DNA of 64,000 nt, from the NCBI GenBank assembly GCA_947054085.1, contig CAMRVD010000001.1, forward strand, positions 24,676 through 88,675, read 5' to 3'. The position numbers were made by a program, and so were the translations under genes. This document shows, in pieces, positions 4,718-21,860 of this stretch; within the stretch, counting starts at the first letter, position 1, and each line of letters opens with the position of its first letter. This DNA is from an uncultured Clostridia bacterium. Lineage in GTDB: Bacteria; Bacillota; Clostridia; Christensenellales; UBA1242. The notes beneath the pieces are model-generated. The model had not been told where the DNA came from. It made no database searches and was given only the letters and a program-made list of their open reading frames with translations.

Positions 4718-4746
4718 TTTTTAACCCTCCAAGTTTACTTAATAAA

Positions 4747-4775: not shown

Positions 4776-4882
4776 CCCCCAACTTTGTAGAAAATTTTAA
4801 TAAAATACAAACAAAAAGATTGGTAATTAAATAATAGATCAAACTAAATCCCTCAGTCTCGTCACAACTCTTGCAATGTTTC

Positions 4883-4964: not shown

Positions 4965-5205
4965 TTGCCAACTCCACTTGCAGGGGAGCCACTAGTTACG
5001 CTAAACAAATTGTTACAAAAAAAGGAAACATGGTGTCTCCTTTTATATAATTATTAAAACAACTTTTATCTTTACCAAAAGCTTTTAACGACAAGAATTA
5101 GATGAAATATAAAGAAATAAACCCCTCAGTCAGCCTCTGGCCGCCAGCTCCCCTTGTGTAAATTGCAATTTTTTTATCACCAGCTCTAAATTGGGGGAGC
5201 CCTTG

Positions 5206-5251
5206 GCAGACGAGGATTTTACTAAGCGTAAATGACGATGTCTGCTTTTTT
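5206..5251 (+). repeat. short copy (A) of the palindromic element: stem + conserved apex + T6
   Basis: GCAGAC-GAG-GATTTTACTAAGCGTAAATGAC-GAT-GTCTGC-TTTTTT. Confidence 0.7.
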
Positions 5252-5299
5252 AGATTTTCTACAACTAGTTATTTTTAATGTAAATAATATTCAAACTCC

Positions 5300-5427
5300 T
5301 TTTAACGGCATAATTTTAGATTAGACGAGAGCATAATAAAACCCCACGATGCGATTTTACTTTGCGTAAATGAGCAGTGTGGGGTTTTATGTATAAACGA
5401 AGTATAACTAAAATTATGCCGTTAAAA
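5300..5427 (+). repeat. full-length 128-nt palindromic element (B), also the tuf terminator
   Basis: 19-bp perfect outer stem 5300-5318/5409-5427. Inner stem AAAACCCCAC/GTGGGGTTTT. Apex GATTTTACTTTGCGTAAATGAG. The right arm ends 1 nt from the tuf stop codon (5429-5431). Confidence 0.8.
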
Positions 5428-5428
5428 A

Positions 5429-6646: not shown

Positions 6647-6681
6647 TGTTTGTTTTCTCCTTATTTTTTTGTGATTTATTT

Positions 6682-8760: not shown

Positions 8761-8897
8761 ATAAATAATGATTCTCCTGTAAATTAGGTAAAATGGGCAA
8801 AACTCCCCCATTAACCTATAAGATATTATAATTTATTTGTAAAAAAATGCCAACTATTTTTAAACACTTTTTTATAATTTTTACATGTTTTTAGGCT

Positions 8898-8925
8898 ATT
8901 ATACCAAAAAATATGATATTTGCAA
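8898..8925 (-). promoter_or_regulatory. sigma-A promoter for fusA-tuf (extended -10)
   Basis: - strand TTGCAA (8925-8920), 16 nt ending in TGG, TATAAT (8903-8898). Confidence 0.6.
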
Positions 8926-9173
8926 CGTATATGCGTTGTAATTTACCCAAAACTTAAAATTAAACAGACCATAATGTCTGTTTAATTATTTTTTGTTATT
9001 TAAAAATATGTATTTTATTGCTAATTAATAATAATTTTCGCTTTAAGCGGTTGTAAGTTTTATAGCATATTTTTTGCAAAAATCTTACACCTAACACATA
9101 AAATTAACTATAAATGTAACATATTTTAGGGTGAAATTAGATGCTAGACTTCGTCGTAACTTTGCTTTATTTA

Positions 9174-9260
9174 TCGCAAATTTTAATTTGCTCTTTTTTT
9201 TGCAATGATACTCCTCTCCCCATACAGTTTATTCTAAACTTATGGGGCCCCGTATTTACA
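9174..9260 (+). repeat. X-family repeat, copy 2
   Basis: TCGCAAATTTTAATTTGCTC ... CTCCTCTCCCCA - hairpin (CCCCATA..AGTTT/AAACT..TATGGGG) - GGGGCCCCGTATTTAC. It abuts element copy C. Confidence 0.6.
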
Positions 9261-9295
9261 GATAGGAGCTTGACGATTGCGTAAGTGACTATTAG
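9261..9295 (+). repeat. short, degenerate copy (C) of the element apex
   Basis: GATAGGAGCTTGACGATTGCGTAAGTGACTATTAG. Its ATAGGAGCTT..GCGTAAGTGACTA matches copy G. Confidence 0.55.
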
Positions 9296-9404
9296 TACAA
9301 GGCAAGCATCTGCAGTATAGCACTAATTAATACTCTAAAATCATTTTAGCGTTATGATCCTTAGCAAGTCGGCAAAAATTAGAATTTTACTAAGGCTCGC
9401 CATG

Positions 9405-9452
9405 TTTGATCTCCCGCGATTTTACTAAAGCGTAAATGAGCGGGCGTCAAGC
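9405..9452 (+). repeat. short copy (D) of the palindromic element
   Basis: TTTGATCTCCCGC-GATTTTACTAAAGCGTAAATGA-GCGGGCGTCAAGC. Confidence 0.65.
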
Positions 9453-9496
9453 TTGGCAGTATATTTGCTGTAAGTTTAATTCTAACACAGCAACCA

Positions 9497-9624
9497 TTTT
9501 AGTGCGAGAATTTGATTTGCAGCTAGGCTCTCAAAAATTTAATCGTTAGGAGTTTACATAATTGTAAATGACTAATGATAAATTTTTGTAAAAACAACAC
9601 TGCAAACAAATTGTCGCACTAAAA
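9497..9624 (+). repeat. full-length 128-nt palindromic element (E), immediately after rpsG
   Basis: Outer stem TTTTAGTGCGA..AATTTGATTTGCAG / CTGCAAACAAATT.TCGCACTAAAA. Inner stem CAAAAATTTAATCGTTAG/CTAATGATAAATTTTTG. Apex GGAGTTTACATAATTGTAAATGAC. The right arm ends at 9624 and the rpsG stop is 9625-9627. Confidence 0.8.
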
Positions 9625-10095
9625 TTACCAGCGGTAGCTTGCAAAGGCCTTATTAGCTTCAGCCATTCTGTGCATTTCTTCTTTCTTTTTAAATGCACCA
9701 CCTGCTTGGTTGTATGCATCCATAAGTTCGTTGGCTAAACGCAAAGCCATAGTGCGGTCTGTGCGTTTGCGGGCGCTTGCCACAATCCAACGAATAGCAA
9801 GTGTTTGACGTCTAACTGGGCGAATTTCCATAGGAACTTGGTAAGTAGAACCACCTACACGGCGAGCTTTAACTTCTAGCACTGGTTTAACATTTTCTAG
9901 TGCTTTGTCCCAAACTTCCATAGCAGAAACGCCAAGTTTAGACGAACTTATTTCTAATGCTTCGTATACAATTTTTTGAGCGATTGTGCGTTTGCCGTCT
10001 TCCATAACTTGATTAATAAGTTTGGTTATATCTTTGCGGTTATATACAGTATCGGCAAGAACTTCTCTAACTATTGCAGCATTTCTTCTTGACAT
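9625..10095 (-). CDS. rpsG: 30S ribosomal protein S7
   Basis: 156 aa, full-length S7 sequence (…VKARRVGGSTYQVP…ANKAFASYRW). Confidence 0.97.
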   Translation of the reverse strand: MSRRNAAIVREVLADTVYNRKDITKLINQVMEDGKRTIAQKIVYEALEISSSKLGVSAMEVWDKALENVKPVLEVKARRVGGSTYQVPMEIRPVRRQTLAIRWIVASARKRTDRTMALRLANELMDAYNQAGGAFKKKEEMHRMAEANKAFASYRW

Positions 10096-10155
10096 TGTTA
10101 TTCCTCCATTTAATATTTAACTAAATATTTCTATTGCTTAACAGCACATTAAAAT

Positions 10156-10533
10156 TTATTTAGGACGTTTTGCACCATATTTGCTTCTTGCTTGTTTGCG
10201 ATCCTTAACACCAGCAGTATCTAAGGTGCCACGAACAATATGGTAACGCACACCAGGAAGGTCCTTTACACGACCACCACGAATAAGAACAACACTATGT
10301 TCCTGCAAATTGTGGCCAATACCTGGAATATAAACCGTACCCTCCATTTTGTTAGAAAGCCTTACTCTTGCAATTTTACGTAACGCTGAGTTAGGTTTTT
10401 TTGGAGATGTGGTAGTTACAGATAGACAAACGCCTCTTTTTTGAGGACACTCCTCTAGTATTGGAGATTTATCCTTAACGGTTTTGTCTTTTCTGCCCTT
10501 GCCATGACGGACTAATTGAGCGATGGTTGGCAT
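10156..10533 (-). CDS. rpsL: 30S ribosomal protein S12
   Basis: [15 protein letters not shown]…[10 protein letters not shown]…[15 protein letters not shown]: canonical S12. Confidence 0.97.
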
Positions 10534-10668
10534 ATTTTTACCTCCTATAAGTATAAAACGAACCCTCCAGCCCCATGGAGAAATTCTTGAAATTTTTTAT
10601 AGCCTAAATTTACACACCTATAAAAATTAGACACAAAAAAGCTCAAACACGATAATACATGCTTTGTT

Positions 10669-10697
10669 ATTTTACCAAACTAATAAAAATAAGTCAA
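10669..10697 (-). promoter_or_regulatory. sigma-A promoter for rpsL-rpsG
   Basis: - strand TTGACT (10697-10692), 17 nt, TAAAAT (10674-10669). About 130-nt leader. Confidence 0.55.
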
Positions 10698-10832
10698 TAC
10701 AATAACCAAACTTTTTATCACTTTTTTATAGTTTAGAAATATAAAAATAAAGCAAGTAGGGTATTTATTAAATCTACACATTTACTTTTTTACTTTTGTG
10801 CATCAAATTACTAATTTTTGCTGCCATATACT

Positions 10833-10857
10833 AAAAAAATGAGCATAATGCTCATTT
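10833..10857 (-). terminator. intrinsic terminator after 10861..11382
   Basis: - strand AAATGAGCA-TT-TGCTCATTTTTTT. Confidence 0.75.
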
Positions 10858-10860
10858 ATT

Positions 10861-11382
10861 CTATTTTACTCCGTTTTGCTTTATGTAGCCAATTTTATAG
10901 TCTAACTTTTTAAGTTTGCCAAGTACCGGTGCAAGCTCTACCGAAAGTGTGCTTTCTATCATTGACAATATTTTTCGCTCGTTTTGCTTACTAATATTAT
11001 AACTAAAATCGTACCCTTCTTTTTGTATGTCTACACCAACTAATTTACCATAAGTATAAAGTTTGTTGTAAGTAGAGTTTTTGCGATACTCTTCTACCTC
11101 GTATTTTGCAAGATCCAATATATTTGCAATATTTGCCTCGTCAACATTTTTAGTTAATTTTTTTATTTTTTTATTTAATTTTTTGGGCAATACTTCTATA
11201 ATAGTTTCAAAGGTAGAATAATAATTACTAAAATCCAAATTATCGTAAAGCTTAAGTACATGACATAAACTTTCGATATTTTTTATCTTTTGTATGTATT
11301 CGTAACTAGTGTAGCCATTGTCTTTGTAAACCGCAGTCCACCCCACCATTTGTGCTAAACTATTAAGGTCTATATATTTCAT
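10861..11382 (-). CDS. hypothetical protein (173 aa)
   Basis: Clean ORF, ATG start, own terminator. No family recognised. Confidence 0.55.
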   Translation of the reverse strand: MKYIDLNSLAQMVGWTAVYKDNGYTSYEYIQKIKNIESLCHVLKLYDNLDFSNYYSTFETIIEVLPKKLNKKIKKLTKNVDEANIANILDLAKYEVEEYRKNSTYNKLYTYGKLVGVDIQKEGYDFSYNISKQNERKILSMIESTLSVELAPVLGKLKKLDYKIGYIKQNGVK

Positions 11383-11409
11383 AAAAATCCTTTATTTATT
11401 TTTAAATGT

Positions 11410-11434
11410 AAAAGCACCAACGTAGGTGCTTTTA
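11410..11434. terminator. intrinsic terminator (bidirectional form)
   Basis: AAAAGCACC-AACGTA-GGTGCTTTT. Confidence 0.7.
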
Positions 11435-11461
11435 GATATTTTATATTATTAATCTTTTATT

Positions 11462-11974
11462 TTACTGCCATTCTGTTCCATTATATAATACATTATTTAT
11501 AGCAGCTTCCCTCTCGTTTAATTCTTGAAGCATAGGTGCAAAAGTATTACTATTCCTTGCTGCATCAATAACTTGAGCATAAGCAGATGACGCCATTTTT
11601 TTATATTGTTCAAACAACTTATTATTTTTATAAAAATCTAATATCTTTGATGCATCAAGTTCTACATTAATAGATTTATCTGTTGAAGCTGCTTCAAAAT
11701 CTTTTATATTATATAAATTCTTTTTGCTTACAAAATTGCAATATTCTGCAACAATAGCTGTATTATGATAATAGTCTTTTCTTGGCAAGCTTTCTTTACC
11801 TATTGCAAATCCTTTTATTTTTGTTTCGCCATTGTTAGCAAAGTTAGCCATGCACGCAATTTTGTCCATTCTAGAATTATATACAACTTGCATGCCAGCA
11901 TTTATTGCTTCGCTGATTAAAATCGCTTTAGTTAGATCGTTGTTTGTGTGCGACCCCGTATTTATTAATTCCAT
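11462..11974 (-). CDS. hypothetical protein (170 aa), translationally coupled to the HicB-like gene
   Basis: ATG at 11974, 2 nt after the upstream stop (11977-11979), with AAGGAGG inside the upstream gene's end. The 50-codon extension to 12124 overlaps that gene and is rejected. Confidence 0.6.
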   Translation of the reverse strand: MELINTGSHTNNDLTKAILISEAINAGMQVVYNSRMDKIACMANFANNGETKIKGFAIGKESLPRKDYYHNTAIVAEYCNFVSKKNLYNIKDFEAASTDKSINVELDASKILDFYKNNKLFEQYKKMASSAYAQVIDAARNSNTFAPMLQELNEREAAINNVLYNGTEWQ

Positions 11975-11976
11975 AG

Positions 11977-12312
11977 TTATGCCTCCTTGGATACCAGTAG
12001 TTTGCCAATAAAGTTTTTGTAGTCTTGCTCGTAAGTTGTAAGTGCAAATTCGTCCGAAACTTCGCACGCAGCAAGTAGTACTACGCGTTTTGGGTTTAAG
12101 CTTACAGCTTCCTCGTAAGTGCAAGCACCAGAAACGTCCGACTCCATTTTACCAGCAAAGTCCAAAAACATTTCGAGGTTTTCTAATGCAGACAAATAAG
12201 CTTGTTCTACAGTATCGCCTCTTGCAATTAAATCCAAATCCGGAAACATTGCAAGGTAATTATTTTCCTCGTGGTCCGCGTAAACAACTAATGGATAGAC
12301 ACATTTTTTCAT
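11977..12312 (-). CDS. HicB-like (UPF0150-type) antitoxin-fold protein
   Basis: N-terminus YPLVVYADHEENNYLAMFPDLDLIARGDTVEQAYLSALENLEMFLD matches the HicB N-terminal domain pattern. No HTH/RHH tail recognised. Confidence 0.55.
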   Translation of the reverse strand: MKKCVYPLVVYADHEENNYLAMFPDLDLIARGDTVEQAYLSALENLEMFLDFAGKMESDVSGACTYEEAVSLNPKRVVLLAACEVSDEFALTTYEQDYKNFIGKLLVSKEA

Positions 12313-12408
12313 GGAATTCCCCTTTAGTAATAATTAATACATTTTTATATTAACACGCTAAGAACCAAAAAGTAAAATGTTTTTTAACTTTTAGTTTTGA
12401 CTATTTAG

Positions 12409-12437
12409 AGTATACTACACATTTTTACTTTTGTAAA
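12409..12437 (-). promoter_or_regulatory. sigma-A promoter for the HicB-like operon
   Basis: - strand TTTACA (12437-12432), 17 nt, TATACT (12414-12409). Confidence 0.5.
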
Positions 12438-12498
12438 TACCCTTTTTTAACAAATTTTGACAAAATTTACAAGGAAATTTTTTAACATCTAACATAAA

Positions 12499-12528
12499 CA
12501 AAACGAGGGAGTATTTCCTCGTTTTTTT
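12499..12528 (-). terminator. intrinsic terminator after 12535..14562
   Basis: CGAGG/CCTCG stem flanked by A- and T-runs. Confidence 0.65.
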
Positions 12529-12534
12529 ATTGTT

Positions 12535-14562
12535 TTAAGCTGCCTTACCAAGATTTAAAGTTATTTGTGCTTCGTAAGTATTTACAAACACATCGTACAT
12601 ACTAGTATCCTGCAAAACAGGATTTTTAATAGACGATGCTTTATCGCCAAGCAGATCGCCATCTGCAAACACTGCACAAAGCTGACCTTTAGTGCTGTTT
12701 AAAAAGTAAGTGACTTTATTGTAAGCAGTACTTAACATATTTAAAGTTACTTTTCGGCTTATACCTTTGGTTTCTACCCTAACTTTGCCGCTAAGTTCTG
12801 CAAAGGTAAGATTAATGTCGCTTTCCGAATAAACGCGTACGTCACCTTTTAAATTACTAGCATTAATACTTCCTCTGCCAGTAAATACATCCACACCTTG
12901 AATGTTTGCGTCGCGGTTTATCCTTATATCTGTACTAGAGGCATTTGTAAAATCTATATGACCGTTTGCACATATATTAACTTTGCCGGTAGTGTTTTTT
13001 AAAGTAATATCGCCGTTGCCGCTATTTATTTTAGCTGCACCAACGTTACCAAGTTCGCCCACATTAACATTTCCCGAACTTGTTATTTCTACACCATCTA
13101 TTGCCGCACCTACATAAATATGGCTATAATTAGATGACACTTTTGCATGCCTTACACTCTGTACATTAACTTGCGAGCTATTACTATTAAGTGTAAGGTT
13201 TCCGCCAATAGTAGCTATATTTACAGCACTTGATGATGTGGTAACGGTAACATCTTTTCCGATGCTATTTAGCTTTATTTCGCCACTGTTACATGTTATT
13301 GTTGCCGTACCTTTAACTACTGGCGGAGTATTTCCAAAAATACTGCCACTTTCTGACACAACCAATAAGTTATTACAAGAAACAAACTTAATGTTACCAC
13401 TTTTTGTGTTTGCAGTAAAATCACCATCAATTGCACCAGTAAAAGTAATGTCGCCTGTCCTTGTATTGGCTACCGCATTTCCAGTAACTGCTCCGCACAA
13501 AATATCTCCACTAGCAGATGCTTCTGCATTTAAATTACCAGCAACTTTATTTATGTTAATGTTGCCAGTAGTAGTAACTATTTTTAAGTTATTAACACTT
13601 CCAAGCGTAACGGTAGACCTATTAGTTTGAATATCTAAACTGCCTAAACAACTTTCGATATTAATATATCCTGTGCGGCTGACAATTTTATTATTGTTGC
13701 CACGAACGCTTCCAAGATCGATATTACCACTAGTAGTTGTAACATTTATACTACCTAAAATTTGACCGCTAATTGGTTTTTTAATGCTACCCGAACTTGT
13801 TTCAACATTTAAGTTATCGCAACCTGCAAAACTTAAATCGCCACTGCCCGAATTAAAAGTTATGTCGCCACCAACAATATTTGTTATGCTTAAACTTTCG
13901 TTTGTAAGGTTTGCAATAACATCTCCATTAACTTTTACATTAGAACCTAAACTTACATATCGGTGAGTGTTAATTGTAAGTTGGTTAGTTATAGTAAGAT
14001 TACTATTATTAATATTTAGTCCGCCATTACTACTAAAGCTTAGATTATTTAAGGTTTGATTACCTCCGTTAAAATTAGCCTGGCTTTTTTGCGAATTAAT
14101 ATAAATATTATTATAATTTTCATATTCGCTAGGAAGATTTACATTTAAATAAAATTTTATATTTTCCCTTGCCCAAATAAATTTTTGATACTCGGTAACA
14201 TTAATGTAAACTGCACTATCTTTTGCGGGGTCAAACGTTTGCCCATCTTTGTTGGTGAGTGTTACATTTGGTACAACCTTAGCTTTTGCAAAACCTTGAT
14301 AATACTGTACAAACTCTACACCAAGAGGCGACTGACTGCCACTAAAATTAATATTTATTGGAACTTTGCTAGCGTTTATATATATATCTTTACTAGTAAA
14401 AGTTTGAATTATTGTTTGCTCGTGCTTACCAACCACACCCGAAACATATTTTATACCAAATATCTCTATTCCTGGGGCAAGCATCATAATAACAACTAAT
14501 GCAAAAATGGCGAACAGTATTACTCCTAAAATTATAGATATATAAATAAGTGCCTTTTTCAT
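12535..14562 (-). CDS. membrane-anchored beta-strand-repeat protein (DUF4097 / putative-adhesin-like)
   Basis: N-terminal TM helix followed by about 20 short repeats of the type TSGNIDLG, TTGNININ, ASGDILCG, RTGDITFT, KSGNIKFV, GNGDITLK. Confidence 0.6.
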   Translation of the reverse strand: MKKALIYISIILGVILFAIFALVVIMMLAPGIEIFGIKYVSGVVGKHEQTIIQTFTSKDIYINASKVPININFSGSQSPLGVEFVQYYQGFAKAKVVPNVTLTNKDGQTFDPAKDSAVYINVTEYQKFIWARENIKFYLNVNLPSEYENYNNIYINSQKSQANFNGGNQTLNNLSFSSNGGLNINNSNLTITNQLTINTHRYVSLGSNVKVNGDVIANLTNESLSITNIVGGDITFNSGSGDLSFAGCDNLNVETSSGSIKKPISGQILGSINVTTTSGNIDLGSVRGNNNKIVSRTGYINIESCLGSLDIQTNRSTVTLGSVNNLKIVTTTGNININKVAGNLNAEASASGDILCGAVTGNAVANTRTGDITFTGAIDGDFTANTKSGNIKFVSCNNLLVVSESGSIFGNTPPVVKGTATITCNSGEIKLNSIGKDVTVTTSSSAVNIATIGGNLTLNSNSSQVNVQSVRHAKVSSNYSHIYVGAAIDGVEITSSGNVNVGELGNVGAAKINSGNGDITLKNTTGKVNICANGHIDFTNASSTDIRINRDANIQGVDVFTGRGSINASNLKGDVRVYSESDINLTFAELSGKVRVETKGISRKVTLNMLSTAYNKVTYFLNSTKGQLCAVFADGDLLGDKASSIKNPVLQDTSMYDVFVNTYEAQITLNLGKAA

Positions 14563-14689
14563 AATCCGCTCCCCTTTTTTACATAGATATTATATATATT
14601 ATAATGCCTACTATTATTATTGTCAATATATATGCTTTTTATGGATTGACAGAATTAAAAAAACCTTAACCCGCAATCTTAGGTTGCAT

Positions 14690-14800
14690 AAGCTAAGGCC
14701 ATTATTTATGAAGGACGAGTGCACTATGTCTGCCCACTCACGGATTTTAATTAAGCGTAAATGAATAGTAGCGGGCAGGCATAAGAAAATATAGGATTTA
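14690..14800 (+). repeat. degenerate copy (F) of the palindromic element
   Basis: AAGCTAAGGCCATTATTTATGAAGGACGAGTGCAC..GTCTGCCC..GGATTTTAATTAAGCGTAAATGAA..GGGCAGGC ATAAGAAAATATAGG. Boundaries approximate. Confidence 0.55.
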
Positions 14801-14831
14801 AGAAATTTAAACTCACTTCTTATTGTTATAT

Positions 14832-14961
14832 AATTAAGGCTATTATTTTATGAAAGGCGAGTGCTCAAAAAATGCTAGCGATAGGAGCTTACTTATGCGT
14901 AAGTGACTAGTGCTAGCATTTTTTAGAAAGCGAATTATTTTATGAAAGAATAGCCTTAATT
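14832..14961 (+). repeat. full-length 130-nt palindromic element (G); right arm lies inside the alaS CDS
   Basis: AATTAAGGCTATT 14832-14844 is the exact reverse complement of 14949-14961. Inner stem AAAAAATGCTAGCG/TGCTAGCATTTTTT. Apex GGAGCTTACTTATGCGTAAGTGAC. Confidence 0.8.
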
Positions 14962-16763
14962 CGGCGGACGCCGGCAGAAGAAGCCTCTTCCTTAACAATC
15001 TTAAACTTACCTAAAGAACCGGTATTTTGTACATGCGGACCACCGCAAATTTGAAAGTCGATATCACCAATTTTATAAACGCTGACAACTTCGTCCGCAG
15101 TGCCGTTATAAATACCATATGCACCACTGTTTAATGCCTCTTTATAAGGCATCTCGTGCCTAGTTACTGCAATATTTTGTTCTATAACATTATTAACAAA
15201 ATCTTCTAGAGTTTTAATTTCTTCGGATGTCATCTTATGGTCTAAATTAAAGTCAAAACGCATACGCTCATGGGTTATATTGCTGCCCTTTTGTACCGTT
15301 TTTTCGCCAAACATACGTCTAAGCCCTGCAAGCATGATATGAGTTGCTGTATGGTACGCAGTTTCCTTTTCTCCAGTAGCTGATAGTCCGCCCTTATTTT
15401 CACCCTTATGAGCGGTTCTTGCTAGTTCTTGATGCTCAGAAAAAGCTTTGTTGTATCCGTCCATATCTACGGTTAGTCCTTGTTCTGCCGCCATTTCCGA
15501 AGTAATTTCTACCGGAAAACCATAGGTTTCGTATAGCCTAAAGGCCTGTTTGCCGCTTATAGTTGTTTCTGGCATATAACCTGGGTTAGATTTTGCCATA
15601 AATTCGTTTTTACGATTAATCCCACTAACAACTTTTTCAAACTCCTTAGTACCGGCAATTATCGTTTTTTCAAACTTGTCAGCCTCGGCTTTAATACTAT
15701 CTAGTATGTATTGTTGTTTTTCTACAAGAAGTGGGTATGCTTTATCATAAACTTTTGTAATATAAATGTTGCAAATGTTTAGTAAGTCCTGTGTTGTAAG
15801 CCCTAGTTTACGAGCATGACGAATAGAGCGGCGAAGCAGTCTGCGTAAGATGTATCCGCTGCCGACATTGCTTGGAAGTATTCCGTCTTTGTCGCCAATA
15901 AGCATAACGCTAGTACGCATATGGTCAGCAACGATTCGCATACTTTTGGTTTTTTGCTCGTCCTCGCCATACTTAATGTTTAAGGCGTCTTCCATATAAT
16001 TAATTACGCCCAAAAATAGGTCGGTTAAATAGCCGTCGGTAAGGCCGTTAACATACATAAGTAACCGCTCAAACCCAAAACCGGTGTCTACGTTTTTATT
16101 TTTTAATGGAGTGTAGCCGCTATCGGTTTTAAGATACTGCATATAAACATCGTTGCCGACTTCTACCCACCTGCCGCAATCACAAGTAACATCGCAATGC
16201 TCGCTGCAAGGCTTATCTGTTATTGGATAAAACCATTCGTTATCGGGCCCACAAGGGGTGTTGGTTGTACCCTCTAGCTCCCACCAGTTATCTTTTAGGT
16301 AATAGATATTTTGCGGCTTAACCCCTGCCTTTACTAGGCAATCTACAGCCTCATCGTCTTTTGGAACATCACTATTCCCCGCAAAAACGGTGGCACAAAT
16401 TTTATCTTTGTTAAACCCTATAACCTTTGTTAAAAATTCAAACGACCATTGAGTTTTTTGCTCTTTAAAATAATCGCCCAAACTCCAGTTACCCATCATT
16501 TCAAAAAAAGTAAAGTGACTAAAATCGCCAACTTCGTCTATATCAACCGTACGTACACAGCCCTGAACATTACAAAGCCGAGTTTTTCCGCTTGGATGCT
16601 TTTTACCAAGTAAATACGGCATAAGCGGTTGCATTCCCGCAACATTAAACATAACACCAGTGCTTCCATCGCCAATAAGCGATACCCCACCAATATCGAT
16701 GTGCCCTTTTTCTTTATAAAAATTTAGCCACTTTTCTCTAAGTTCTTTAGAAGTTAATTTCAT
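14940..16763 (-). CDS. alaS: alanine--tRNA ligase, short form without C-Ala domain (607 aa)
   Basis: Class II AlaRS core (…FTFFEMMGNWSLGDYFK…), editing domain (HTATHIM…, CGGPHV). Ends at …SAGVRRIKAILS. Confidence 0.92.
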   Translation of the reverse strand: MKLTSKELREKWLNFYKEKGHIDIGGVSLIGDGSTGVMFNVAGMQPLMPYLLGKKHPSGKTRLCNVQGCVRTVDIDEVGDFSHFTFFEMMGNWSLGDYFKEQKTQWSFEFLTKVIGFNKDKICATVFAGNSDVPKDDEAVDCLVKAGVKPQNIYYLKDNWWELEGTTNTPCGPDNEWFYPITDKPCSEHCDVTCDCGRWVEVGNDVYMQYLKTDSGYTPLKNKNVDTGFGFERLLMYVNGLTDGYLTDLFLGVINYMEDALNIKYGEDEQKTKSMRIVADHMRTSVMLIGDKDGILPSNVGSGYILRRLLRRSIRHARKLGLTTQDLLNICNIYITKVYDKAYPLLVEKQQYILDSIKAEADKFEKTIIAGTKEFEKVVSGINRKNEFMAKSNPGYMPETTISGKQAFRLYETYGFPVEITSEMAAEQGLTVDMDGYNKAFSEHQELARTAHKGENKGGLSATGEKETAYHTATHIMLAGLRRMFGEKTVQKGSNITHERMRFDFNLDHKMTSEEIKTLEDFVNNVIEQNIAVTRHEMPYKEALNSGAYGIYNGTADEVVSVYKIGDIDFQICGGPHVQNTGSLGKFKIVKEEASSAGVRRIKAILS

Positions 16764-16952
16764 GATAATTTCCTTGATATTTTTGTTGATATTATTTACA
16801 TAAGCTTTAGAAAAATAACTTATGTTTTTTTACCGGCGAAAGATTATTGCCTTATAGATAAAAGATCCTTCGACTTGCGTACCGCTCGCTCGAGGACTAG
16901 CTAAAAAGTATTACATTTTATAGATTTTTGTAAGCTTACTCAAAATCAAAAT

Positions 16953-18635
16953 CTAATTTATTGTATTTGGTTTATAACTATCTTTAAGTGATACTGTGCG
17001 GTTAAACACAAGTTTGTCTGCAGTGCTGTCTTTATCTAGGCAGAAGTAGCCCGTACGCAAAAATTGATAGCGGTCGGTATAATTAAATTCTACATCGTCC
17101 TCTGCGTAGCAATTGTTTAAAATTGTTAGCGAATTTGGATTAAACTCGTCGTCCGCCGCCGTCTGCTCCTTGCCGCCAGCAGCATTATCTTCTTTTGGAA
17201 GTGTCAAGTTTTCGAATAGCCTAACTTCTACTTGTTTTGCGTGGTTCTGGTTAATCCAGTGAATTGTACCCTTAACTTTTTTAGTACAGTTACTACCAGA
17301 CTTTGTTTCTGGGTCGTAATCTGCATAAACAGTTGCAACATTACCGCTATCGTCCAAATCGTAGCCCGTACATTTTACAATAAATGCACCGTTTAACCTA
17401 ACTTCGTTACCTACAAAAAGTCTGCGATATTTTGGTGGCGGAGTAATTTCAAAGTCCGAACGCTCTATATATAAATTTTTACCAAAATAGTATTTGCGTT
17501 TAGAGGTTTCTTCCTTTTGAGGGTAATCTGCTAAACTTATTTCTATCTCCTCGTCATCTGCTAGGTTGTTTATAACAAGTTTAATAGGATCGGTTACAAC
17601 CATAACACGCTTAGAGCAATCGTTAAGGGTATTTCGCACAAAGTAGTCTAGCATTGCAGGATCTATAACCGACACTGCCTTACTTATGCCTGCCGCATAC
17701 ACAAAATCTATTAGGCTTTGAGGCAGTATTCCGCGGCGACGAAGCCCTCGGATTGTATAAAGCCTTGGGTCGTCAAAACCGCTAACTTTGCCCTCGTTTA
17801 CTAGTTTTTTTATAAACCTTTTGCCTAGTATTACGCCCTTTATATAAAGGTTAGCGTACTCTATTTGGCGGCTATGATTAGTAAGCCCGCTATTTTCTAC
17901 CACCCAGTTATATAGTGGACGGTGATCCTCAAACTCGGGACCGCAAAGTGAATGCGTTACCCCCTCGATGCAGTCGTCTAGTGGGTGCGAAAAGTCGTAC
18001 GATGGATAAATTTTCCACTTGTCGCCAATGCGTTGATGATGTAAGTATTGTATGCGGTAAATAACCGGGTCACGCATATTTATGTTAGGGTGAGCCATAT
18101 CTATTTTAGCCCTTAAGCACCTTTCGCCCTGCTTAAACTCGCCGTTTTTCATACGCTCAAAAAGGTCTAAATTCTCCTCTACACTGCGGTCACGGTATGG
18201 GCTGTTTTTGCCGGGAGTTGTAAGCGTTCCGCGGTAAGCAGAAACCTCTTCTGCAGAAAGGTCGTCTACATACGCCTTACCCTCTTTAATAAGTTTTACC
18301 GCTATTTGATAGTTTTGCTCAAAATAGTCGGTAGCGTAATAAATATTGCCCCAATTATACCCCAGCCATTTTACATCTTCCTGGATGGCGTCTACAAACT
18401 CTTGACTTTCCTTTTCGGGGTTGGTGTCGTCGTAACGCAAATTACAAACGCCGCCGTATTTTTTTGCCGTGCCATAGTTAAGTACAATGTTTCGTACATG
18501 GCCTATATGCATGTATCCGCTAGGCTCTGGTGGCTGACGGGTTTGAACAAAACCCTTAACCTTGCCCTCTAAAATATCTTTGTTAATTTCGGCTTCTATA
18601 AAGTTAGTCACCTCTATTGGTTTAGATTTTTCCAT
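16953..18635 (-). CDS. glnS: glutamine--tRNA ligase
   Basis: PEPSGYMHIGH (HIGH motif), …FDDPRLYTIRGLRRRG…, GlnRS-type C-terminal anticodon-binding region. ATG at 18635 preferred over the upstream extension. Confidence 0.88.
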   Translation of the reverse strand: MEKSKPIEVTNFIEAEINKDILEGKVKGFVQTRQPPEPSGYMHIGHVRNIVLNYGTAKKYGGVCNLRYDDTNPEKESQEFVDAIQEDVKWLGYNWGNIYYATDYFEQNYQIAVKLIKEGKAYVDDLSAEEVSAYRGTLTTPGKNSPYRDRSVEENLDLFERMKNGEFKQGERCLRAKIDMAHPNINMRDPVIYRIQYLHHQRIGDKWKIYPSYDFSHPLDDCIEGVTHSLCGPEFEDHRPLYNWVVENSGLTNHSRQIEYANLYIKGVILGKRFIKKLVNEGKVSGFDDPRLYTIRGLRRRGILPQSLIDFVYAAGISKAVSVIDPAMLDYFVRNTLNDCSKRVMVVTDPIKLVINNLADDEEIEISLADYPQKEETSKRKYYFGKNLYIERSDFEITPPPKYRRLFVGNEVRLNGAFIVKCTGYDLDDSGNVATVYADYDPETKSGSNCTKKVKGTIHWINQNHAKQVEVRLFENLTLPKEDNAAGGKEQTAADDEFNPNSLTILNNCYAEDDVEFNYTDRYQFLRTGYFCLDKDSTADKLVFNRTVSLKDSYKPNTIN

Positions 18636-18793
18636 ATAATTTCTCTTGATTAATATAATTTTATTTGTTTTTAAATTTTGTTTTAACAATAAGCATTAAA
18701 ATTAATGCGTAGATAAATTTGCTTTATCTTTAAAATAACTAAATTATCTTTTTGTATGTACCTATATGCTAAAAATAGCATTTAAATATTTTT

Positions 18794-20344
18794 CTAGCTA
18801 TCAAAAATATCGTCTACTGGAGGCATTGTGGCCTGCTGCTCTGGTGGAATATCACCGCCAGTATAACTAAATCCGCCGTAATCCGCCGACAAATCGTCAA
18901 AGCCCTTAGGTAGTTCGCTTTGCGGAATATCGCTAAAAATATCACTGACATTGCTGTCGTCTATAACTGCACCATGCATCGCTTCGTAGGCTTGCTCTAA
19001 ACTCTTTTCGTTTTGGTCTTTAGAAAGGTTTACAAAACTTACGCGGTTGCCGTCCCAACCAACATTAACGCTGCCTGGCTGACCATTACGGAATTTTGCA
19101 ATAATAAGCTCTGCAACATAGCTTTCGTTTTTAATTGGCTCGCCTTCTGGCTGATCTTTGCGGTCGATAAATATAATCATATCCGCGTCTTGCTCTATCG
19201 CACCGGACTCTCTTAGGTCGCTTAGCATTGGGCGATGACCTTGTCTGCTTTCTACCGCACGTGATAACTGCGAAAGCACAATTACTGGCACATCTATTTC
19301 TTTGGCTAATATTTTCATGTTACGACTCATCTCCGATACTTCGGTTTGACGATTATCGGTTTTAGAATCGCCCGTCATAAGCTGAAGATAGTCTACAACC
19401 ACTAGGTCTAGTCCGCGTTCGCGTTTAAGCTTACGGCATTTTGCTAGTATTTGCGATGGTTTATTTAAGCTATTGTCGTCGCAATAAATGCTAGCCCCCG
19501 CAAGTTTTTTATGCGCACCCCAAAGCTTAACCCAATCGCGTTCGTTTAACTCGCCCGCTCTGGCCTTACCCATATCTACACCTGCAATCGAGCATAGCAT
19601 ACGCTGTGCAAGTTGCTCTCGCCCCATTTCCAAGCTAAATATGGCACATTTTGCTTTGTCATCTATAGCGGCGTTGCTAACAATGTTCATAGCTAAACTG
19701 GTTTTACCTATGCCGGGACGTGCAGCTAAAATAATTAAATCGGTCTTTTGAAGCCCACCTATTTTTTTATCTAAAGCAATAAATCCAGTACGAACACCAC
19801 GTTTAGTACCACCATCTTGATTAATTTCTTCAAAAATTTCCATGGCGTTATTAAACGCACCACTCATGTTTTCTAGCCCACTAGAAGAACCGTCTTCGCC
19901 AATTTCGTACAATGCCTTTTCTGCATCGGCTAAAATATCTGTACTGTCTGCTTCGTAAGCTTTGCTTGCAACATTAGAACATGTTTCGATTATCTGGCGA
20001 AGAACACTATCGCGTTTTACAATCTCGGTATAACTTGCATGATACGCACTACTAGGCACAGCATTAGTAAGGCTTGTTATGTAGTTTATGCCTCCAACAG
20101 CTTCTAACTTTTCACGTTTTTCTAGTATATCTATAAGAGTTACAAAATCTACTGGTTTTGCTTGCAAATATAAGTCCTTCATAGCCTCAAAAATTATTTT
20201 ATGAGTTTCGCTATAAAAATCCTTAGGCTCTAGCTGCCCCACTATTGTTTCTGCAGCTAAGCTATCTATAAGTGCACTGCAAAGCACTGCTTGCTCTGCC
20301 TCCAAATTATTTGGCATAACCCTTGCTGTAACTTTTTTTGCCAT
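18794..20344 (-). CDS. dnaB: replicative DNA helicase DnaB with about 80-aa acidic C-terminal extension
   Basis: NLEAEQAVLCSALID…, Walker A ARPGIGKTS, …VVVDYLQLM…SQLSR. ATG at 20344 with AGGAG SD. Confidence 0.93.
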   Translation of the reverse strand: MAKKVTARVMPNNLEAEQAVLCSALIDSLAAETIVGQLEPKDFYSETHKIIFEAMKDLYLQAKPVDFVTLIDILEKREKLEAVGGINYITSLTNAVPSSAYHASYTEIVKRDSVLRQIIETCSNVASKAYEADSTDILADAEKALYEIGEDGSSSGLENMSGAFNNAMEIFEEINQDGGTKRGVRTGFIALDKKIGGLQKTDLIILAARPGIGKTSLAMNIVSNAAIDDKAKCAIFSLEMGREQLAQRMLCSIAGVDMGKARAGELNERDWVKLWGAHKKLAGASIYCDDNSLNKPSQILAKCRKLKRERGLDLVVVDYLQLMTGDSKTDNRQTEVSEMSRNMKILAKEIDVPVIVLSQLSRAVESRQGHRPMLSDLRESGAIEQDADMIIFIDRKDQPEGEPIKNESYVAELIIAKFRNGQPGSVNVGWDGNRVSFVNLSKDQNEKSLEQAYEAMHGAVIDDSNVSDIFSDIPQSELPKGFDDLSADYGGFSYTGGDIPPEQQATMPPVDDIFDS

Positions 20345-20581
20345 CAACATGCTCCTATGTATAAAAATATATATAAAATATACTACTAATAAAGCCAAAC
20401 TGTCAAGAACAAATAATAAACCGAGCATACATTGTATAATTTGGTTTATTTAAACAACATGTTCCACAAATTTTATAAATATAATTTCTACTCAAAACAA
20501 AAACACCAGCATAACGCCAGTTGTTTTTTTATTAATATATTTCCTAAGTTTTATGGTTAAACCAAAAAAATTACTATACCC

Positions 20582-20710
20582 TTTAAACGGCGAGAATTAG
20601 TGCAAGATGAGTGCTCTAAAAAAGCCAGCGATGGAAGTTTACTTTGCGTAAATGACCAGTGCTGGCGTTTTTAAGAAAGCGAAATATTGTACTAATTATC
20701 GCCGTTTAAA
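20582..20710 (+). repeat. full-length 129-nt palindromic element (H) overlapping the rpsR stop codon
   Basis: TTTAAACGGCGA/TCGCCGTTTAAA and GAATTAGTGCAA/TTGTACTAATT outer stems. Inner stem AAAAAAGCCAGC/GCTGGCGTTTTT. Apex GGAAGTTTACTTTGCGTAAATGAC. Confidence 0.8.
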
Positions 20711-20969
20711 TTGTTTTGTATGGAAGCAATGCCATAACCCTTGCCCTTTTAATAGCGCCCTGAAGTTCGCGTTGATGTTTTGCACAAACGCCGGTTGTTC
20801 TACGAGGTAAAATTTTACCTTTTTCGGTCATAAATCTACGAAGTTTAGTTGTATCTTTATAATCGATAGAAGCTTTTTCTGTGCAGAAAGCACAAACTTT
20901 TTTTACGCTTTTACGGGTTTTTTTAGGGTTTTTATCATCGCCATCGTTTTTTACGATCTTTTTGTTCAT
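20706..20969 (-). CDS. rpsR: 30S ribosomal protein S18
   Basis: …[46 protein letters not shown]… canonical S18. Confidence 0.93.
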
Positions 20970-21134
20970 GATATATCTCCTATTATTTTTTTCTTAATTG
21001 TGGGCAAAAATTTGCCACAAAACACGCAAAATTAATGCAAAAATCATTAAAAATGCAGTAAATTTTGATGATTTTGGCCTGTTGGCTAACTAATAGCACT
21101 AATTAAAATGGATGACCCTGCTCTTTTATTTTAA

Positions 21135-21554
21135 TTAGAATGGCAAATTGTCATCGTCGATAGGCTCAAACTTATTTACAACATTAGTTGTTGGTTTTTC
21201 GCCTACTTCTGTTTCGCCGTCGTCTTCTGACATAGCCGACTTGGTAGATAAAAATTCTACATCGTCAGCCACAATTTCGGTCATGTATCTTCTTGTACCC
21301 TCTGGAGTATCGTATACTCTAGTTTGAATAGTACCGCTAACAGCTGCTTTGCTACCTTTTTTTAAATATTTATAGCAGTTGTCGGCTGCCCCCCTCCAAA
21401 CGATGATAGAAAGAAAATCAGCTTCTCTTTCCCCGTTAGGGCTAGTGTATCTTCTTGGTACTGCAAGGGTAAATTTACACAAACTTACACCATTTGTAGT
21501 TGTGCTTAATTCTGGATCCTTTGTTAAGTTTCCAATTAAAATTACTTTGTTCAT
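21135..21554 (-). CDS. ssb: single-stranded DNA-binding protein
   Basis: MNKVILIGNLTKDPEL… OB fold; C-terminal tip DDDNLPF. Confidence 0.93.
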   Translation of the reverse strand: MNKVILIGNLTKDPELSTTTNGVSLCKFTLAVPRRYTSPNGEREADFLSIIVWRGAADNCYKYLKKGSKAAVSGTIQTRVYDTPEGTRRYMTEIVADDVEFLSTKSAMSEDDGETEVGEKPTTNVVNKFEPIDDDNLPF

Positions 21555-21578
21555 AATTACTCCTAAAGATTGGCAAAC

Positions 21579-21860
21579 TTATTTTGCAACAATCATATGT
21601 CTAACAACATTTTCGGTAATGTTTAGTAGATCAGATATTGGTTTTATTGCATTAACTTCTGCTTTAAAAGTTAGTAAGCAATAATATCCTTCGGTTGTGT
21701 AGTTAATAGCATAAGCATATTTTTTTACGCCCCATTTATCTACACTTAGTTCTTTACCGCCATTAGCTTCTACAATAGAACTAACCTTATCTACTAATGC
21801 TTGTTTTTGCTCGTCAGAAAGACTTGCATTTATTATATAAAGCATTTCGTAAGATTTCAT
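21579..21860 (-). CDS. rpsF: 30S ribosomal protein S6
   Basis: MKSYEMLYIINASL…; rpsF-ssb-rpsR gene order. Confidence 0.9.
   Translation of the reverse strand: MKSYEMLYIINASLSDEQKQALVDKVSSIVEANGGKELSVDKWGVKKYAYAINYTTEGYYCLLTFKAEVNAIKPISDLLNITENVVRHMIVAK

What the first reader, a model, noticed from the sequence alone, without database searches (positions are those of the whole stretch)
20619..20670. Element apex is strand-asymmetric, and all eight copies point the same way, antisense to every flanking gene
Read on the + strand, each apex is …GA-(U/G)-YUUAC-loop-GUAAR-U-GA….
- The 5-bp helix shows a C-G/U-A swap: TTTAC/GTAAA in most copies, CTTAC/GTAAG at 14888-14904.
- It is closed by a U.U or G.U opposition.
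- Two opposed GA dinucleotides follow, a candidate tandem sheared G.A motif of the kind bound by proteins in loop-E or K-turn-like motifs.

The reverse complement would oppose UC with UC. So the conserved GA…TGA is not a by-product of palindromy and implies a strand-specific reading.

All 8 copies carry the GA strand on +, while every gene from 3415 to 21860 is on -. Two readings seem possible:
1. The functional form is an RNA antisense to the mRNA 3' ends.
2. The element works as a single-stranded DNA hairpin with a replication-strand bias, as REP/RAYT and IS200/IS605-type palindromic elements do.
Basis: partly seen in the sequence, partly recalled or inferred. Interest (0 to 1): 0.7.

Follow-up and report, generated by a model that had tools for sequence, protein, structure and literature searches.

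The report
Strand-specific GA-capped hairpin repeats after stop codons
Eight copies of a long hairpin element with a conserved, one-strand-only "GA…UGA" cap sit just after the stop codons of housekeeping genes, and the same unnamed element occurs in distant bacterial phyla, so it is probably an undescribed structured RNA or repeat family.

Summary
A covariance model finds exactly eight copies in the 64-kb window. All are on the + strand, in four intergenic regions between 5.2 and 20.7 kb, where every gene is on the - strand.

The apex (GA-K-YUUAC-loop-GUAAR-UGA) caps hairpins that are 125-131 nt long in four copies. Their stems differ completely between copies, while their internal loops are conserved.

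- **Distribution:** the same architecture occurs in Helicobacter, Staphylococcus, Clostridia, Bacteroidales and Gammaproteobacteria.
- **Structure:** stems covary strongly. The apical helix has four compensated variants while GA…UGA stays fixed.
- **Strand asymmetry:** the GA strand folds better than its complement in 39 of 43 elements.
- **Known families:** no Rfam family matches, and no partner gene recurs nearby.
- **New finding:** the element's 3' arm abuts the stop codon of a convergent gene in about half of the members. It lies between the stop codon and the native terminator.
- **Turnover:** copies vary between strains and form tandem arrays.
- **Orientation:** family-wide it is biased towards antisense but is not exclusive.

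My best reading is a strand-specific structured RNA module, with a box C/D-like tandem G.A motif, carried by a proliferating palindromic repeat. In this genome it doubles as a bidirectional terminator. A single-stranded DNA or transposase reading remains a serious rival.

The parts
20582..20712 (+). Copy 8, full rod hairpin. It has a variable outer stem P1 whose 3' arm includes the S18 stop codon. Its internal loop reads 5' GAUGAGUGCUC / 3' AAGAAAGCGAAAU. P2 is an A-run, GC stem and U-run. The inner module is CGAUGG/CCAGUG and the apex lies at 20635-20655. The reported 20619-20670 is P2 plus the apex.
   Evidence: Fold -59 kcal/mol, z -9.6. CM 40.4 bits, E 3e-10. Stop codon 41 nt after the model end. 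Identical in 10 other strains.
14832..14962 (+). Copy 7, full rod hairpin. The apex at 14885-14906 has CUUAC/GUAAG. The 3' arm of P1 overlaps the last 7 codons and the stop codon of alanine-tRNA ligase.
   Evidence: Fold -55.8 against -40.1 kcal/mol on the other strand. CM E 8e-10. Junction shown.
14725..14783 (+). Copy 6, a shorter and degenerate hairpin. Its apex at 14743-14764 reads GAU-UUUAA-UUAAGC-GUAAA-UGA, and the C-G pair is lost.
   Evidence: CM 15.4 bits, E 0.02. Sequence. Fold.
9496..9625 (+). Copy 5, full rod hairpin with its apex at 9550-9571. Its 3' arm ends at the S7 stop codon (9625-9627).
   Evidence: Fold -54.4 kcal/mol, z -11.6. CM E 1e-8. Junction.
9395..9460 (+). Copy 4, a short form. 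The stem CCCGC/GCGGG is directly flanked by GAU…UGA, with the apex at 9418-9439.
   Evidence: CM E 3.5e-9. Fold.
9257..9297 (+). Copy 3, a degenerate apex at 9266-9288 (GAG-CUUGAC-GAUUGC-GUAAG-UGA). It is preceded by a CUCCCC…GGGG hairpin.
   Evidence: CM 22.5 bits, E 1.4e-4. Sequence.
5302..5427 (+). Copy 2, full rod hairpin with its apex at 5353-5373. Its 3' arm ends 1 nt before the EF-Tu stop codon (5429-5431). It is absent from two related strains.
   Evidence: Fold -50.8 kcal/mol, z -9.3. CM E 6e-12. Absence in L002 and L003.
5205..5251 (+). Copy 1, an apex hairpin (apex 5215-5235). It is followed by U6 on the + strand only, with no A-run upstream, so it looks like a terminator in the GA direction alone. 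It is absent from two related strains.
   Evidence: Sequence. CM E 6e-10. Alignment.
5017..5044 (.). Native bidirectional terminator downstream of EF-Tu. Strains that lack copies 1 and 2 keep it. The elements lie between the stop codon and this hairpin.
   Evidence: Alignment of window, L002 and L003.
20505..20521 (.). Second terminator hairpin after copy 8, on the gene side of the dnaB promoter. Copy 8 lies between the S18 stop codon and this hairpin.
   Evidence: Terminator scan. Alignment of strains.

Best explanation
The eight loci belong to a family of rod-shaped, strand-specific structured elements that is not in Rfam and that I did not find in the literature. The functional single strand is the GA (+) strand, most likely as RNA.

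**Anatomy.** Each member is a long hairpin of variable, compensating helices separated by conserved purine-rich internal loops. The apical loop is a tandem sheared G.A/A.G plus U.U (or G.U) stack on a 5-bp helix. This is the arrangement of the non-canonical stem of a box C/D-type kink-turn. The Helicobacter and some Staphylococcus copies carry a 3-nt bulge, which makes them a complete K-turn consensus.

**Inferred role.** I infer that this cap, and probably the other loops, is a binding site for a trans-acting factor.

**In this genome.**
- The inner stem is flanked by an A-run and a U-run. The element therefore also acts as a bidirectional intrinsic terminator, placed directly after the stop codon and ahead of the native terminator.
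- In the gene direction the mRNA carries the weaker pyrimidine-mismatch version.
- Transcripts running antisense into the gene would fold the stable GA version and stop there.

**Spread.** The family proliferates like a palindromic repeat: strains differ in copy content, there are tandem arrays, and some genomes hold near-identical copies.

**Shown:** structure, covariation, strand asymmetry, distribution, stop-codon docking and indel polymorphism.
**Inferred:** that RNA rather than DNA is the active form, that a protein binds the cap, and the terminator or insulator role.
For: - **Copies:** exactly 8, all on +.
- **Folds:** z-scores of -8 to -12 for the four full copies.
- **Strand asymmetry:** the GA strand is more stable in 39 of 43 elements, mean -6 kcal/mol, p 3e-7. 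Single A.C mismatches number 8 on the GA strand against 27 on the other. G.U 20 against A.C 6 in alignment A8. A strain variant in copy 7 turns G-C into G.U on the + strand.
- **Covariation:** 25 of 33 pairs carry double changes. 92.9% of cells are paired, against 70% when shuffled and 35-46% when slid. The inner stem covaries across phyla.
- **Fixed cap:** GA…UGA is kept through four compensated helix variants.
- **Shared architecture:** the same layout is seen in five or more phyla.
- **Transcription signals in the GA direction:** each unit in L032 is followed by a unidirectional terminator. Copy 1 has a U-tract only on +. A/U runs flank the inner stem of copies 2, 5, 7 and 8 and of L009, L018, L020, L041 and L059.
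- **Sense copies:** in Staphylococcus some copies lie in the sense direction upstream of genes, so the GA strand is transcribed there.
Against: - No expression data, and no convincing promoter upstream of the + strand copies.
- The copies lie between a stop codon and the gene's own terminator. The RNA certain to be made is therefore the complementary (UC) strand.
- Tandem G.A and G.T are also tolerated in single-stranded DNA hairpins. Compensated stems can arise in DNA palindromes by template switching, without any selection on RNA.
- No binding protein was identified. The window copies lack the 3-nt bulge of a true K-turn.
- Nearest-neighbour energy rules favour purine-rich loops, which inflates the strand difference.
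- The cross-phylum sample was collected with an exact 18-base apex pattern, so apex conservation within that sample is circular.
Confidence: 0.4

Rival explanations
1. The element is a non-autonomous mobile palindromic element (REP, REPIN or MITE-like). It would act as a single-stranded DNA hairpin recognised by a transposase or recombinase encoded elsewhere in the genome. The conserved asymmetric loops would mark the active strand, as the extrahelical bases of integron attC sites do. The orientation bias would come from strand-specific insertion during replication.
For: - Copies 1 and 2 are absent from strains that encode an identical EF-Tu.
- There are clusters of 2-3 copies per spacer.
- Tandem arrays reach 96-97% identity.
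- Near-identical copies lie on different contigs of one Helicobacter genome.
- The distribution is patchy and centred on animal-associated lineages of unrelated phyla.
- The neighbouring genes share no function.
- As with attC sites, structure is conserved rather than sequence, the element abuts the stop codon, and the marked strand is antisense to the gene.
Against: - No Y1, tyrosine-recombinase or other transposase gene lies in the 64-kb window.
- No such gene recurs in 37 loci of 0.9-8 kb each.
- No GT[AG]G foot, no conserved AAC/GTT boxes and no target-site duplication could be defined.
- The GA strand lies on the leading-strand template, the wrong strand for IS200/IS605- or REP-type chemistry.
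- The A-run/U-run flanks make sense only for RNA.
- The apex is conserved, whereas the tip of an attC site is variable.
- The flanking genes are essential housekeeping genes.
Confidence: 0.3
2. The element is an ordinary 3'-UTR hairpin or terminator of the upstream gene. It would work only in the mRNA (UC) strand to end transcription and block 3' exonucleases. The GA asymmetry would be a frozen accident of a repeat family.
For: - The hairpin starts at the stop codon of the gene that reads into it: 14 of 17 inspected junctions, with the stop 40-47 nt from the model end.
- U-tracts are present in the gene direction for copies 2, 5, 7 and 8.
- The hairpins are very stable on both strands.
Against: - In the mRNA strand the conserved positions are pyrimidine-pyrimidine mismatches with no known role, and they weaken the hairpin.
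- They are nevertheless conserved across phyla while the helices change.
- Many members lack U-tracts (Helicobacter, Staphylococcus, L034, L055).
- At least ten members are in the sense orientation.
- The genes already have a native terminator downstream.
Confidence: 0.15
3. The element is an independent small RNA gene, or a sponge-like array of them, that sequesters an RNA-binding protein. Its position next to genes would be incidental.
For: - There are head-to-tail arrays: L026 with at least 4 units, L032 with 2.1 units and L017 with 2.1 units.
- Each L032 unit has its own terminator in the GA direction.
- A motif of the protein-binding type is repeated along the rod.
Against: - No promoters were identified.
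- Most copies have no terminator of their own at the 3' end of the rod and would read into the convergent gene.
- Docking at stop codons is too regular to be incidental.
Confidence: 0.1

Closest known systems
Kink-turn of the box C/D or U4 type (binding site of the L7Ae family)
   Same: A tandem G.A/A.G is followed by U.U and then a Watson-Crick helix. The 3' strand reads N-U-G-A followed directly by a helix, as in a D box. Helicobacter and S. pettenkoferi copies have a 3-nt bulge (AGG/AGA) before GA, which gives the full consensus.
   Different: The window copies have no 3-nt bulge, so the loop is a symmetric 3x3 loop. There is no RUGAUGA/CUGA pair with guide segments. No L7Ae-family gene was seen. 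Bacteria of several carrier phyla are not known to have such a protein (my own knowledge).
REP/REPIN elements and their RAYT (TnpA_REP) transposases
   Same: Both are intergenic, multi-copy, hairpin-forming and strand-asymmetric. Both are often found after genes, and both can stabilise mRNA or terminate transcription (features as summarised in bioRxiv 10.1101/279083).
   Different: REPs are 21-65 nt with a GT[AG]G foot and a conserved sequence within a species, and they flank a RAYT gene. Here the hairpins are 120-150 nt, have no GT[AG]G, have stems that differ between copies of one genome, and share an apex across phyla.
Long palindromic intergenic repeats transcribed within mRNAs (ERIC, Correia/NEMIS, BOX, Bacillus bcr1)
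   Same: They are 100-150 bp imperfect palindromes in 3' UTRs and operon spacers. They are present or absent between strains. Orientation-dependent effects on RNA are known (my own knowledge).
   Different: Those families are confined to one genus or family and are conserved in sequence along the whole element. This one keeps only the loops and spans phyla.
Integron attC sites
   Same: Folding is conserved with little sequence conservation, and unpaired bases mark one strand. The site begins at the stop codon of the preceding gene, and the marked strand is antisense to the gene. In chromosomal arrays that strand lies on the leading-strand template (my own knowledge).
   Different: attC sites have R/L boxes (AAC/GTT) and a variable tip, and they need an integron integrase. 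Here the tip is the most conserved part, there are no conserved AAC/GTT boxes, and the neighbours are essential housekeeping genes.
K-turn-containing repeated RNAs sRkB/sRkC of Pyrococcus abyssi (PMC3124441)
   Same: These are repeated intergenic loci that give structured transcripts. Their sheared G.A K-turns were shown to bind L7Ae.
   Different: They are archaeal, are linked to an IS200/IS605 OrfB element, and have a different fold. No such link was found here.

Membership tests
Kink-turn (standard) | Tandem sheared G.A and A.G pairs next to the non-canonical helix | tested here: met
   By sequence only. 5' GA opposes 3' GA in 7 of 8 window copies and in nearly all family members; L026 has AA like copy 8. 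The sheared geometry itself was not tested.
Kink-turn (standard) | Three-nucleotide bulge on the 5' strand between the canonical helix and the G.A pairs | tested here: not met
   The window copies pair directly up to GA, for example GC-GAU…UGA-GC and GG-AAG…UGA-CC. The bulge is met only in Helicobacter (GC-AGG-GA) and S. pettenkoferi (GC-AGA-GA) copies.
Kink-turn (standard) | Bound by an L7Ae-family protein encoded in the genome | tested here: inconclusive
   No PF01248 hit appears among the window proteins that were scanned or that had precomputed hits. The rest of the genome was not available.
Box C/D guide RNA | C box RUGAUGA and D box CUGA at the termini, with guide segments complementary to rRNA | tested here: not met
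   Only the GAU/UGA core is present. Rfam C/D models score 13-16 bits against gathering scores of 43-58.
REP/RAYT | Hairpin of 21-65 nt with a GT[AG]G tetranucleotide 0-2 nt 5' of the foot (bioRxiv 10.1101/279083) | tested here: not met
   The hairpins are 120-150 nt. The feet read CTCC|TTTTAAC, AACC|ATTTTAG, TATA|TAATTAA and TACC|CTTTAAA.
REP/RAYT | Y1 (HUH) transposase gene flanked by the repeats | tested here: inconclusive
   None is in the window. No protein recurs in 37 loci. Whole genomes could not be scanned.
IS200/IS605-type single-strand elements | Active strand on the lagging-strand template | tested here: not met
   GC skew on + is negative along the whole window, and the EF and ribosomal genes are on -. 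The GA strand is therefore on the leading-strand template. Caveat: skew is confounded with gene strand.
Integron attC | Conserved R''/R' boxes (RYYYAAC … GTTRRRY) and a variable tip | tested here: not met
   AAC/GTT is seen in copies 2 and 8 only. It is explained there by the TTAA/TTTAAA palindrome around the stop codon. The tip is the conserved part.
Intrinsic (Rho-independent) terminator | GC-rich hairpin followed by a U-tract | tested here: met
   The inner stem has a U4-U6 tract in both directions for copies 2, 5, 7 and 8, and in the + direction only for copy 1. Copies 3, 4 and 6 have none. Function was not tested.
Any Rfam 15 family | Score at or above the family's gathering threshold | tested here: not met
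   The window and 20 loci gave only tRNAs. E-value mode on three elements gave only noise.

The most novel reading that the evidence does not exclude
The elements may be members of a previously undescribed class of bacterial structured RNAs found across phyla. Each is a 120-150 nt rod with three or four conserved purine-rich internal loops and a box C/D-like K-turn cap. It would be read from the strand antisense to the neighbouring gene and would be docked at that gene's stop codon. On this reading it assembles an unknown ribonucleoprotein that controls what happens at gene 3' ends, such as antisense insulation, 3'-end processing or decay.
Probability: 0.25. Interest if true: 0.85.

Novelty: new variant of a known kind. 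Interest (0 to 1): 0.66.

Why it matters
Intergenic palindromic repeats are usually lineage-specific and conserved in sequence. This family behaves the opposite way: the helices are free to change, while a set of unpaired, strand-specific purines is held constant from Clostridia to Helicobacter and Staphylococcus. That is the signature of a structure that something reads.

If it is a transposase, it would be a new hairpin-recognising mobile system with a preference for the first bases after a stop codon.

Either way, the family is a tractable handle on how bacteria mark and protect gene 3' ends. It occurs in cultivable isolates in which the decisive experiments are easy.

Tried and rejected
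- **Rfam.** Gathering mode on the window and 20 loci, and E-value mode on three elements, gave nothing.
- **Literature.** Searches for the sequence itself, for K-turn repeats, for long multi-copy hairpins and for YlxQ/YbxF found no description. The 'cuckoo RNA' family has CCUCCUCCC loops and is unrelated.
- **Partner gene.** All-against-all clustering of ORFs from 37 loci found no recurrent protein. Pfam and NCBIfam scans of window proteins found no transposase, recombinase, reverse transcriptase or L7Ae.
- **Phage or plasmid origin.** One chance-like viral hit and no plasmid homologue. This also argues against a plasmid single-strand origin (ssoA). I considered ssoA because the loop resembles its TAGCGT motif.
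- **Cis-regulator of a pathway.** Rejected, because the docked genes are unrelated: RecN-like, Fe-S assembly, PPDK, SDR, AcnX and F420 ligase.
- **Self-cleaving ribozymes.** Hammerhead and hairpin ribozymes were considered from UGAUGAG and AGAAACA strings. They were rejected because the element is an unbranched rod and the cores do not match.
- **Mimicry of rRNA.** The sarcin-ricin loop and the L11-binding region of 23S rRNA resemble only copies 7 and 8 (AGAAAGCGAA). Judged to be chance.
- **Short peptide from the AUGA in the cap.** Rejected, because the downstream frames are not conserved.
- **Promoters for the GA strand.** None was convincing.
- **Metagenome scan.** It added only about four true members.

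Full report
**1. What is in the window**

The window is a low-GC stretch (about 33%) of a gut metagenome contig (ERZ14865207 NODE_159, 143 kb). The organism is a spore-forming member of the Clostridia: germination genes GerA, GerAC and a spore permease and the spore cortex gene YabQ are present.

Every gene between 3.4 and 21.9 kb is on the - strand. They include S6-SSB-S18, DnaB, GlnRS, AlaRS, a DUF4097 protein, S12-S7, EF-G and EF-Tu.

**2. Check of the observation**

I built an apex covariance model from 39 sequences and ran it with filters off over both strands. It finds exactly eight matches, all on +.
- Six are strong (E 6e-12 to 1e-8). Two are degenerate (9257-9297, E 1e-4; 14743-14764, E 0.02).
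- Nothing lies between 21 and 64 kb.
UGA is on the 3' side in 8 of 8 copies, and GA is on the 5' side in 7 of 8 (AA at 20635). Next comes U.U (4 copies) or G.U (4 copies), then UUUAC/GUAAA or CUUAC/GUAAG, with a 5-6 nt loop that usually ends in GC.

The eight copies lie in only four spacers: two after EF-Tu, three between S7 and EF-G, two after AlaRS and one after S18. The "8 of 8 same orientation" count is therefore worth about four independent observations.

**3. The apex is the tip of a larger object**

Four copies are hairpins of 125-131 nt: 5302-5427, 9496-9625, 14832-14962 and 20582-20712. Their folding energies are -51 to -59 kcal/mol, with z-scores of -8 to -12. From the outside in, they share this plan:
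- an outer stem whose sequence is unrelated between copies;
- an internal loop with conserved strands (5' RYGAGWGC, 3' GAAAGCGAA/AAACGAAG);
- an inner stem made of an A-run, a GC-rich helix and a U-run;
- a short module CGAUNG/CNAGUG that contains an A.G and a G.U;
- the GA…UGA loop, the 5-bp helix and the terminal loop.

The reported 20619-20670 is the inner stem plus the apex of copy 8. Copies 1, 3, 4 and 6 are shorter hairpins that carry the same cap.

**4. The family spans phyla**

One scan of 185,579 species genomes with the 18-base apex pattern returned 58 loci. About 45 of them have the apex flanked by complementary arms. They come from:
- Helicobacter zhangjianzhongii and three uncultured Helicobacter;
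- Staphylococcus pettenkoferi, S. marylandisciuri and S. croceilyticus;
- many Clostridia and Lachnospiraceae MAGs from animal guts;
- Alistipes and other Bacteroidales;
- three Gammaproteobacteria.

Folding each one gives the same rod. It has a mid loop of 5' AC(A/G)AGG against 3' (A/G)AC(G/A)(C/A)AG, and an inner purine loop (GCA/AA, GAA/AA or GA/GA). Many also have an outer loop of 5' UGAUGAG against 3' UCGCAAA.

Because this sample was collected with the apex pattern, apex conservation within it is circular. Independent support comes from copies that do not match the pattern. These are window copies 3, 5, 6, 7 and 8, the L026 array, L030:4277, L032:4766, L058:584, L014:6583, L035:4340 and L060:4108. 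In them the apical helix is CUUAC/GUAAG, UUUAG/CUAAA or UUACC/GGUAA, and GA…UGA is unchanged.

**5. Structure is under constraint**

- In 15 Helicobacter copies, 33 predicted pairs are 92.9% paired. The figure is 70% after shuffling and 35-46% when the partner is slid by one to three columns. Twenty-five pairs show changes on both sides.
- Across phyla, the two pairs next to the GA loop alternate between GC/GC, GG/CC, AG/CU and AC/GU, and the inner stem covaries.

**6. Strand asymmetry**

- The GA strand folds better than its complement in 39 of 43 elements. The mean difference is -6 kcal/mol (Wilcoxon p 3e-7), and 32 of 35 elements outside the window show it.
- Single A.C mismatches inside helices number 8 on the GA strand and 27 on the other strand. 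Those positions are therefore G.U on the GA strand.
- In the Helicobacter alignment, G.U outnumbers A.C by 20 to 6 (p 0.009), and G.A outnumbers C.U.
- One strain-level substitution in copy 7 converts G-C to G.U on +.
- Energy rules favour purine loops, so the energy gap is partly built in. The mismatch counts do not have that problem.

**7. Position relative to genes (new finding)**

In many members the 3' arm of the rod, read on the GA strand, ends at the stop codon of a gene on the opposite strand.
- The stop lies 40-47 nt past the end of the apex model in 14 of 17 junctions inspected. These are in Clostridia, Staphylococcus and Helicobacter. A gammaproteobacterial copy (L039) has the stop at 51 nt.
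- In copy 8 the TAA of S18 is inside the outer stem.
- In copy 7 the outer stem overlaps the last seven AlaRS codons.
- In copies 2 and 5 the stem ends 0-1 nt from the stop.
- Elements after S18 (window, L030, L059) and after EF-Tu (window, L027) sit at the same place in different species, yet their stems are unrelated.

The elements lie between the stop codon and the gene's own terminator. After EF-Tu, the native terminator at 5017-5044 is retained. After S18, a second hairpin at 20505-20521 follows copy 8. The docked genes are functionally unrelated.

**8. Orientation across the family**

Outside the window I counted 16 elements antisense to both neighbours, 7 between convergent genes, 10 sense to both and 2 between divergent genes. 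Orientation is therefore biased towards antisense but is not exclusive.

GC skew on + is negative along the whole window, and the ribosomal and EF genes are on -. The GA strand is thus the leading-strand template and the transcription template. The strand exposed as single-stranded DNA at the fork carries the UC version. This is the wrong way round for an IS200/IS605- or REP-type mechanism acting on the GA strand. In the 8-kb loci, skew simply followed gene direction, so replication and transcription could not be separated.

**9. Turnover**

- Two strains that encode an identical EF-Tu protein lack copies 1 and 2 altogether, about 400 bp. They keep the three copies between S7 and EF-G.
- Ten further strains keep copy 8 unchanged.
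- Lachnospiraceae and Staphylococcus genomes hold head-to-tail arrays at 96-97% identity.
- One Helicobacter genome holds near-identical copies on several contigs.
- I could not define a target-site duplication.

**10. Signals of transcription**

- In the window subfamily and its relatives, the inner stem has A- and U-runs on both sides. These are bidirectional terminator features.
- Copy 1 has a U-tract only in the GA direction.
- In L032, each unit is followed by a separate intrinsic terminator that works only in the GA direction.
- In Staphylococcus, copies lie in the sense direction just upstream of genes.
- No convincing promoter for the GA strand was found in the window.

**11. Comparison with known systems**

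- Nothing in Rfam 15 matches, and text searches found no description.
- The cap equals the non-canonical stem of a box C/D-type K-turn (G.A, A.G, U.U, then a helix). The 3-nt bulge is present only in some lineages, so the window copies fail the K-turn membership test.
- REP/RAYT features, taken from bioRxiv 10.1101/279083, are not met.
- attC sites share the logic (structure over sequence, docking at the stop codon, an antisense marked strand) but not the defining boxes.
- ERIC-, Correia- and bcr1-type repeats share size and location but not the pattern of conservation.
- An archaeal precedent exists for repeated, K-turn-bearing intergenic RNAs that bind L7Ae (PMC3124441).

**12. Verdict**

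The most likely reading (0.4) is a strand-specific structured RNA module on a proliferating palindromic repeat. In this genome it also serves as a bidirectional terminator set against stop codons. A single-stranded DNA or transposase reading (0.3) and a plain 3'-UTR hairpin reading (0.15) remain open. Expression data and closed-genome orientation statistics would decide between them.

Noticed in passing
window 4915-4990, 5147-5200 and 9213-9258 (+ strand): A second small repeat family lies next to copies 1 and 3. It consists of CUCCUCUCCCC(A)…GGGG(A/C)CCCGUA(A/U)AUAC hairpins, and CCAGCUCC(CC)…GGGGAGCC hairpins. Part of this block is also missing from strains L002 and L003.
   Followed up: partly
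window about 4845-5044 and 5119-5251 (+ strand): There are two candidate + strand small RNAs antisense to the gene row. Both begin AAA(U/C)CCCUCAGUC and end at a hairpin plus U-tract: the 5017-5044 terminator and copy 1. A shorter version is present in L002 and L003. A weak -10-like TATAAA lies at about 5109-5114.
   Followed up: no
window 8812-9624: The spacer between the S7 and EF-G genes is 813 bp, unusually long for the str operon. It holds three element copies plus other hairpins, and it is kept in all three strains examined.
   Followed up: partly
window 5408-5417 and 5436-5445; L027: The EF-Tu coding end (+ strand 5436-5445, ATAATTTTAG) is the reverse complement of part of the 3' arm of the rod (5408-5417, CTAAAATTAT), and ATAATTTTAG also recurs in the 5' arm (5312-5321). 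A similar relation is seen in the orthologous element of another species. This may mean alternative pairing or arm extension by template switching. No statistical test was run.
   Followed up: partly
L062, L063 and L066-L069, compared with window 20430-20530: Several near-identical strains carry a 212-215 aa methyltransferase gene inserted between the terminator that follows copy 8 and dnaB. The window strain and L065 lack it.
   Followed up: no
window 39407-40127 (+): The DNA-processing protein A (DprA) gene is split into two overlapping ORFs, 39407-39778 and 39762-40127. This is probably a frameshift or a pseudogene.
   Followed up: no
window 49139-63919 (-): A giant ORF of 4926 aa contains many internal repeats with a spacing of about 615 to 1700 bp.
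   Followed up: no
window 18794-20428 (-): The dnaB ORF as listed is 544 aa, but other strains aa. A consensus promoter (TTGACA-18-TATATT) lies inside the first 50 bases, so the true start is probably downstream.
   Followed up: no
L017 2276-2536 and L048 1769-2213: In two Staphylococcus species the element keeps its place next to the same left-hand gene. The neighbouring Fe-S assembly gene is inverted between the two species. The element is therefore upstream and sense in one species, and downstream, antisense and docked at the stop codon in the other.
   Followed up: partly
L076 768-900: A gammaproteobacterial member carries a roughly 30-nt hairpin insertion inside its 3' arm, compared with the near-identical L039 copy.
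   Followed up: no
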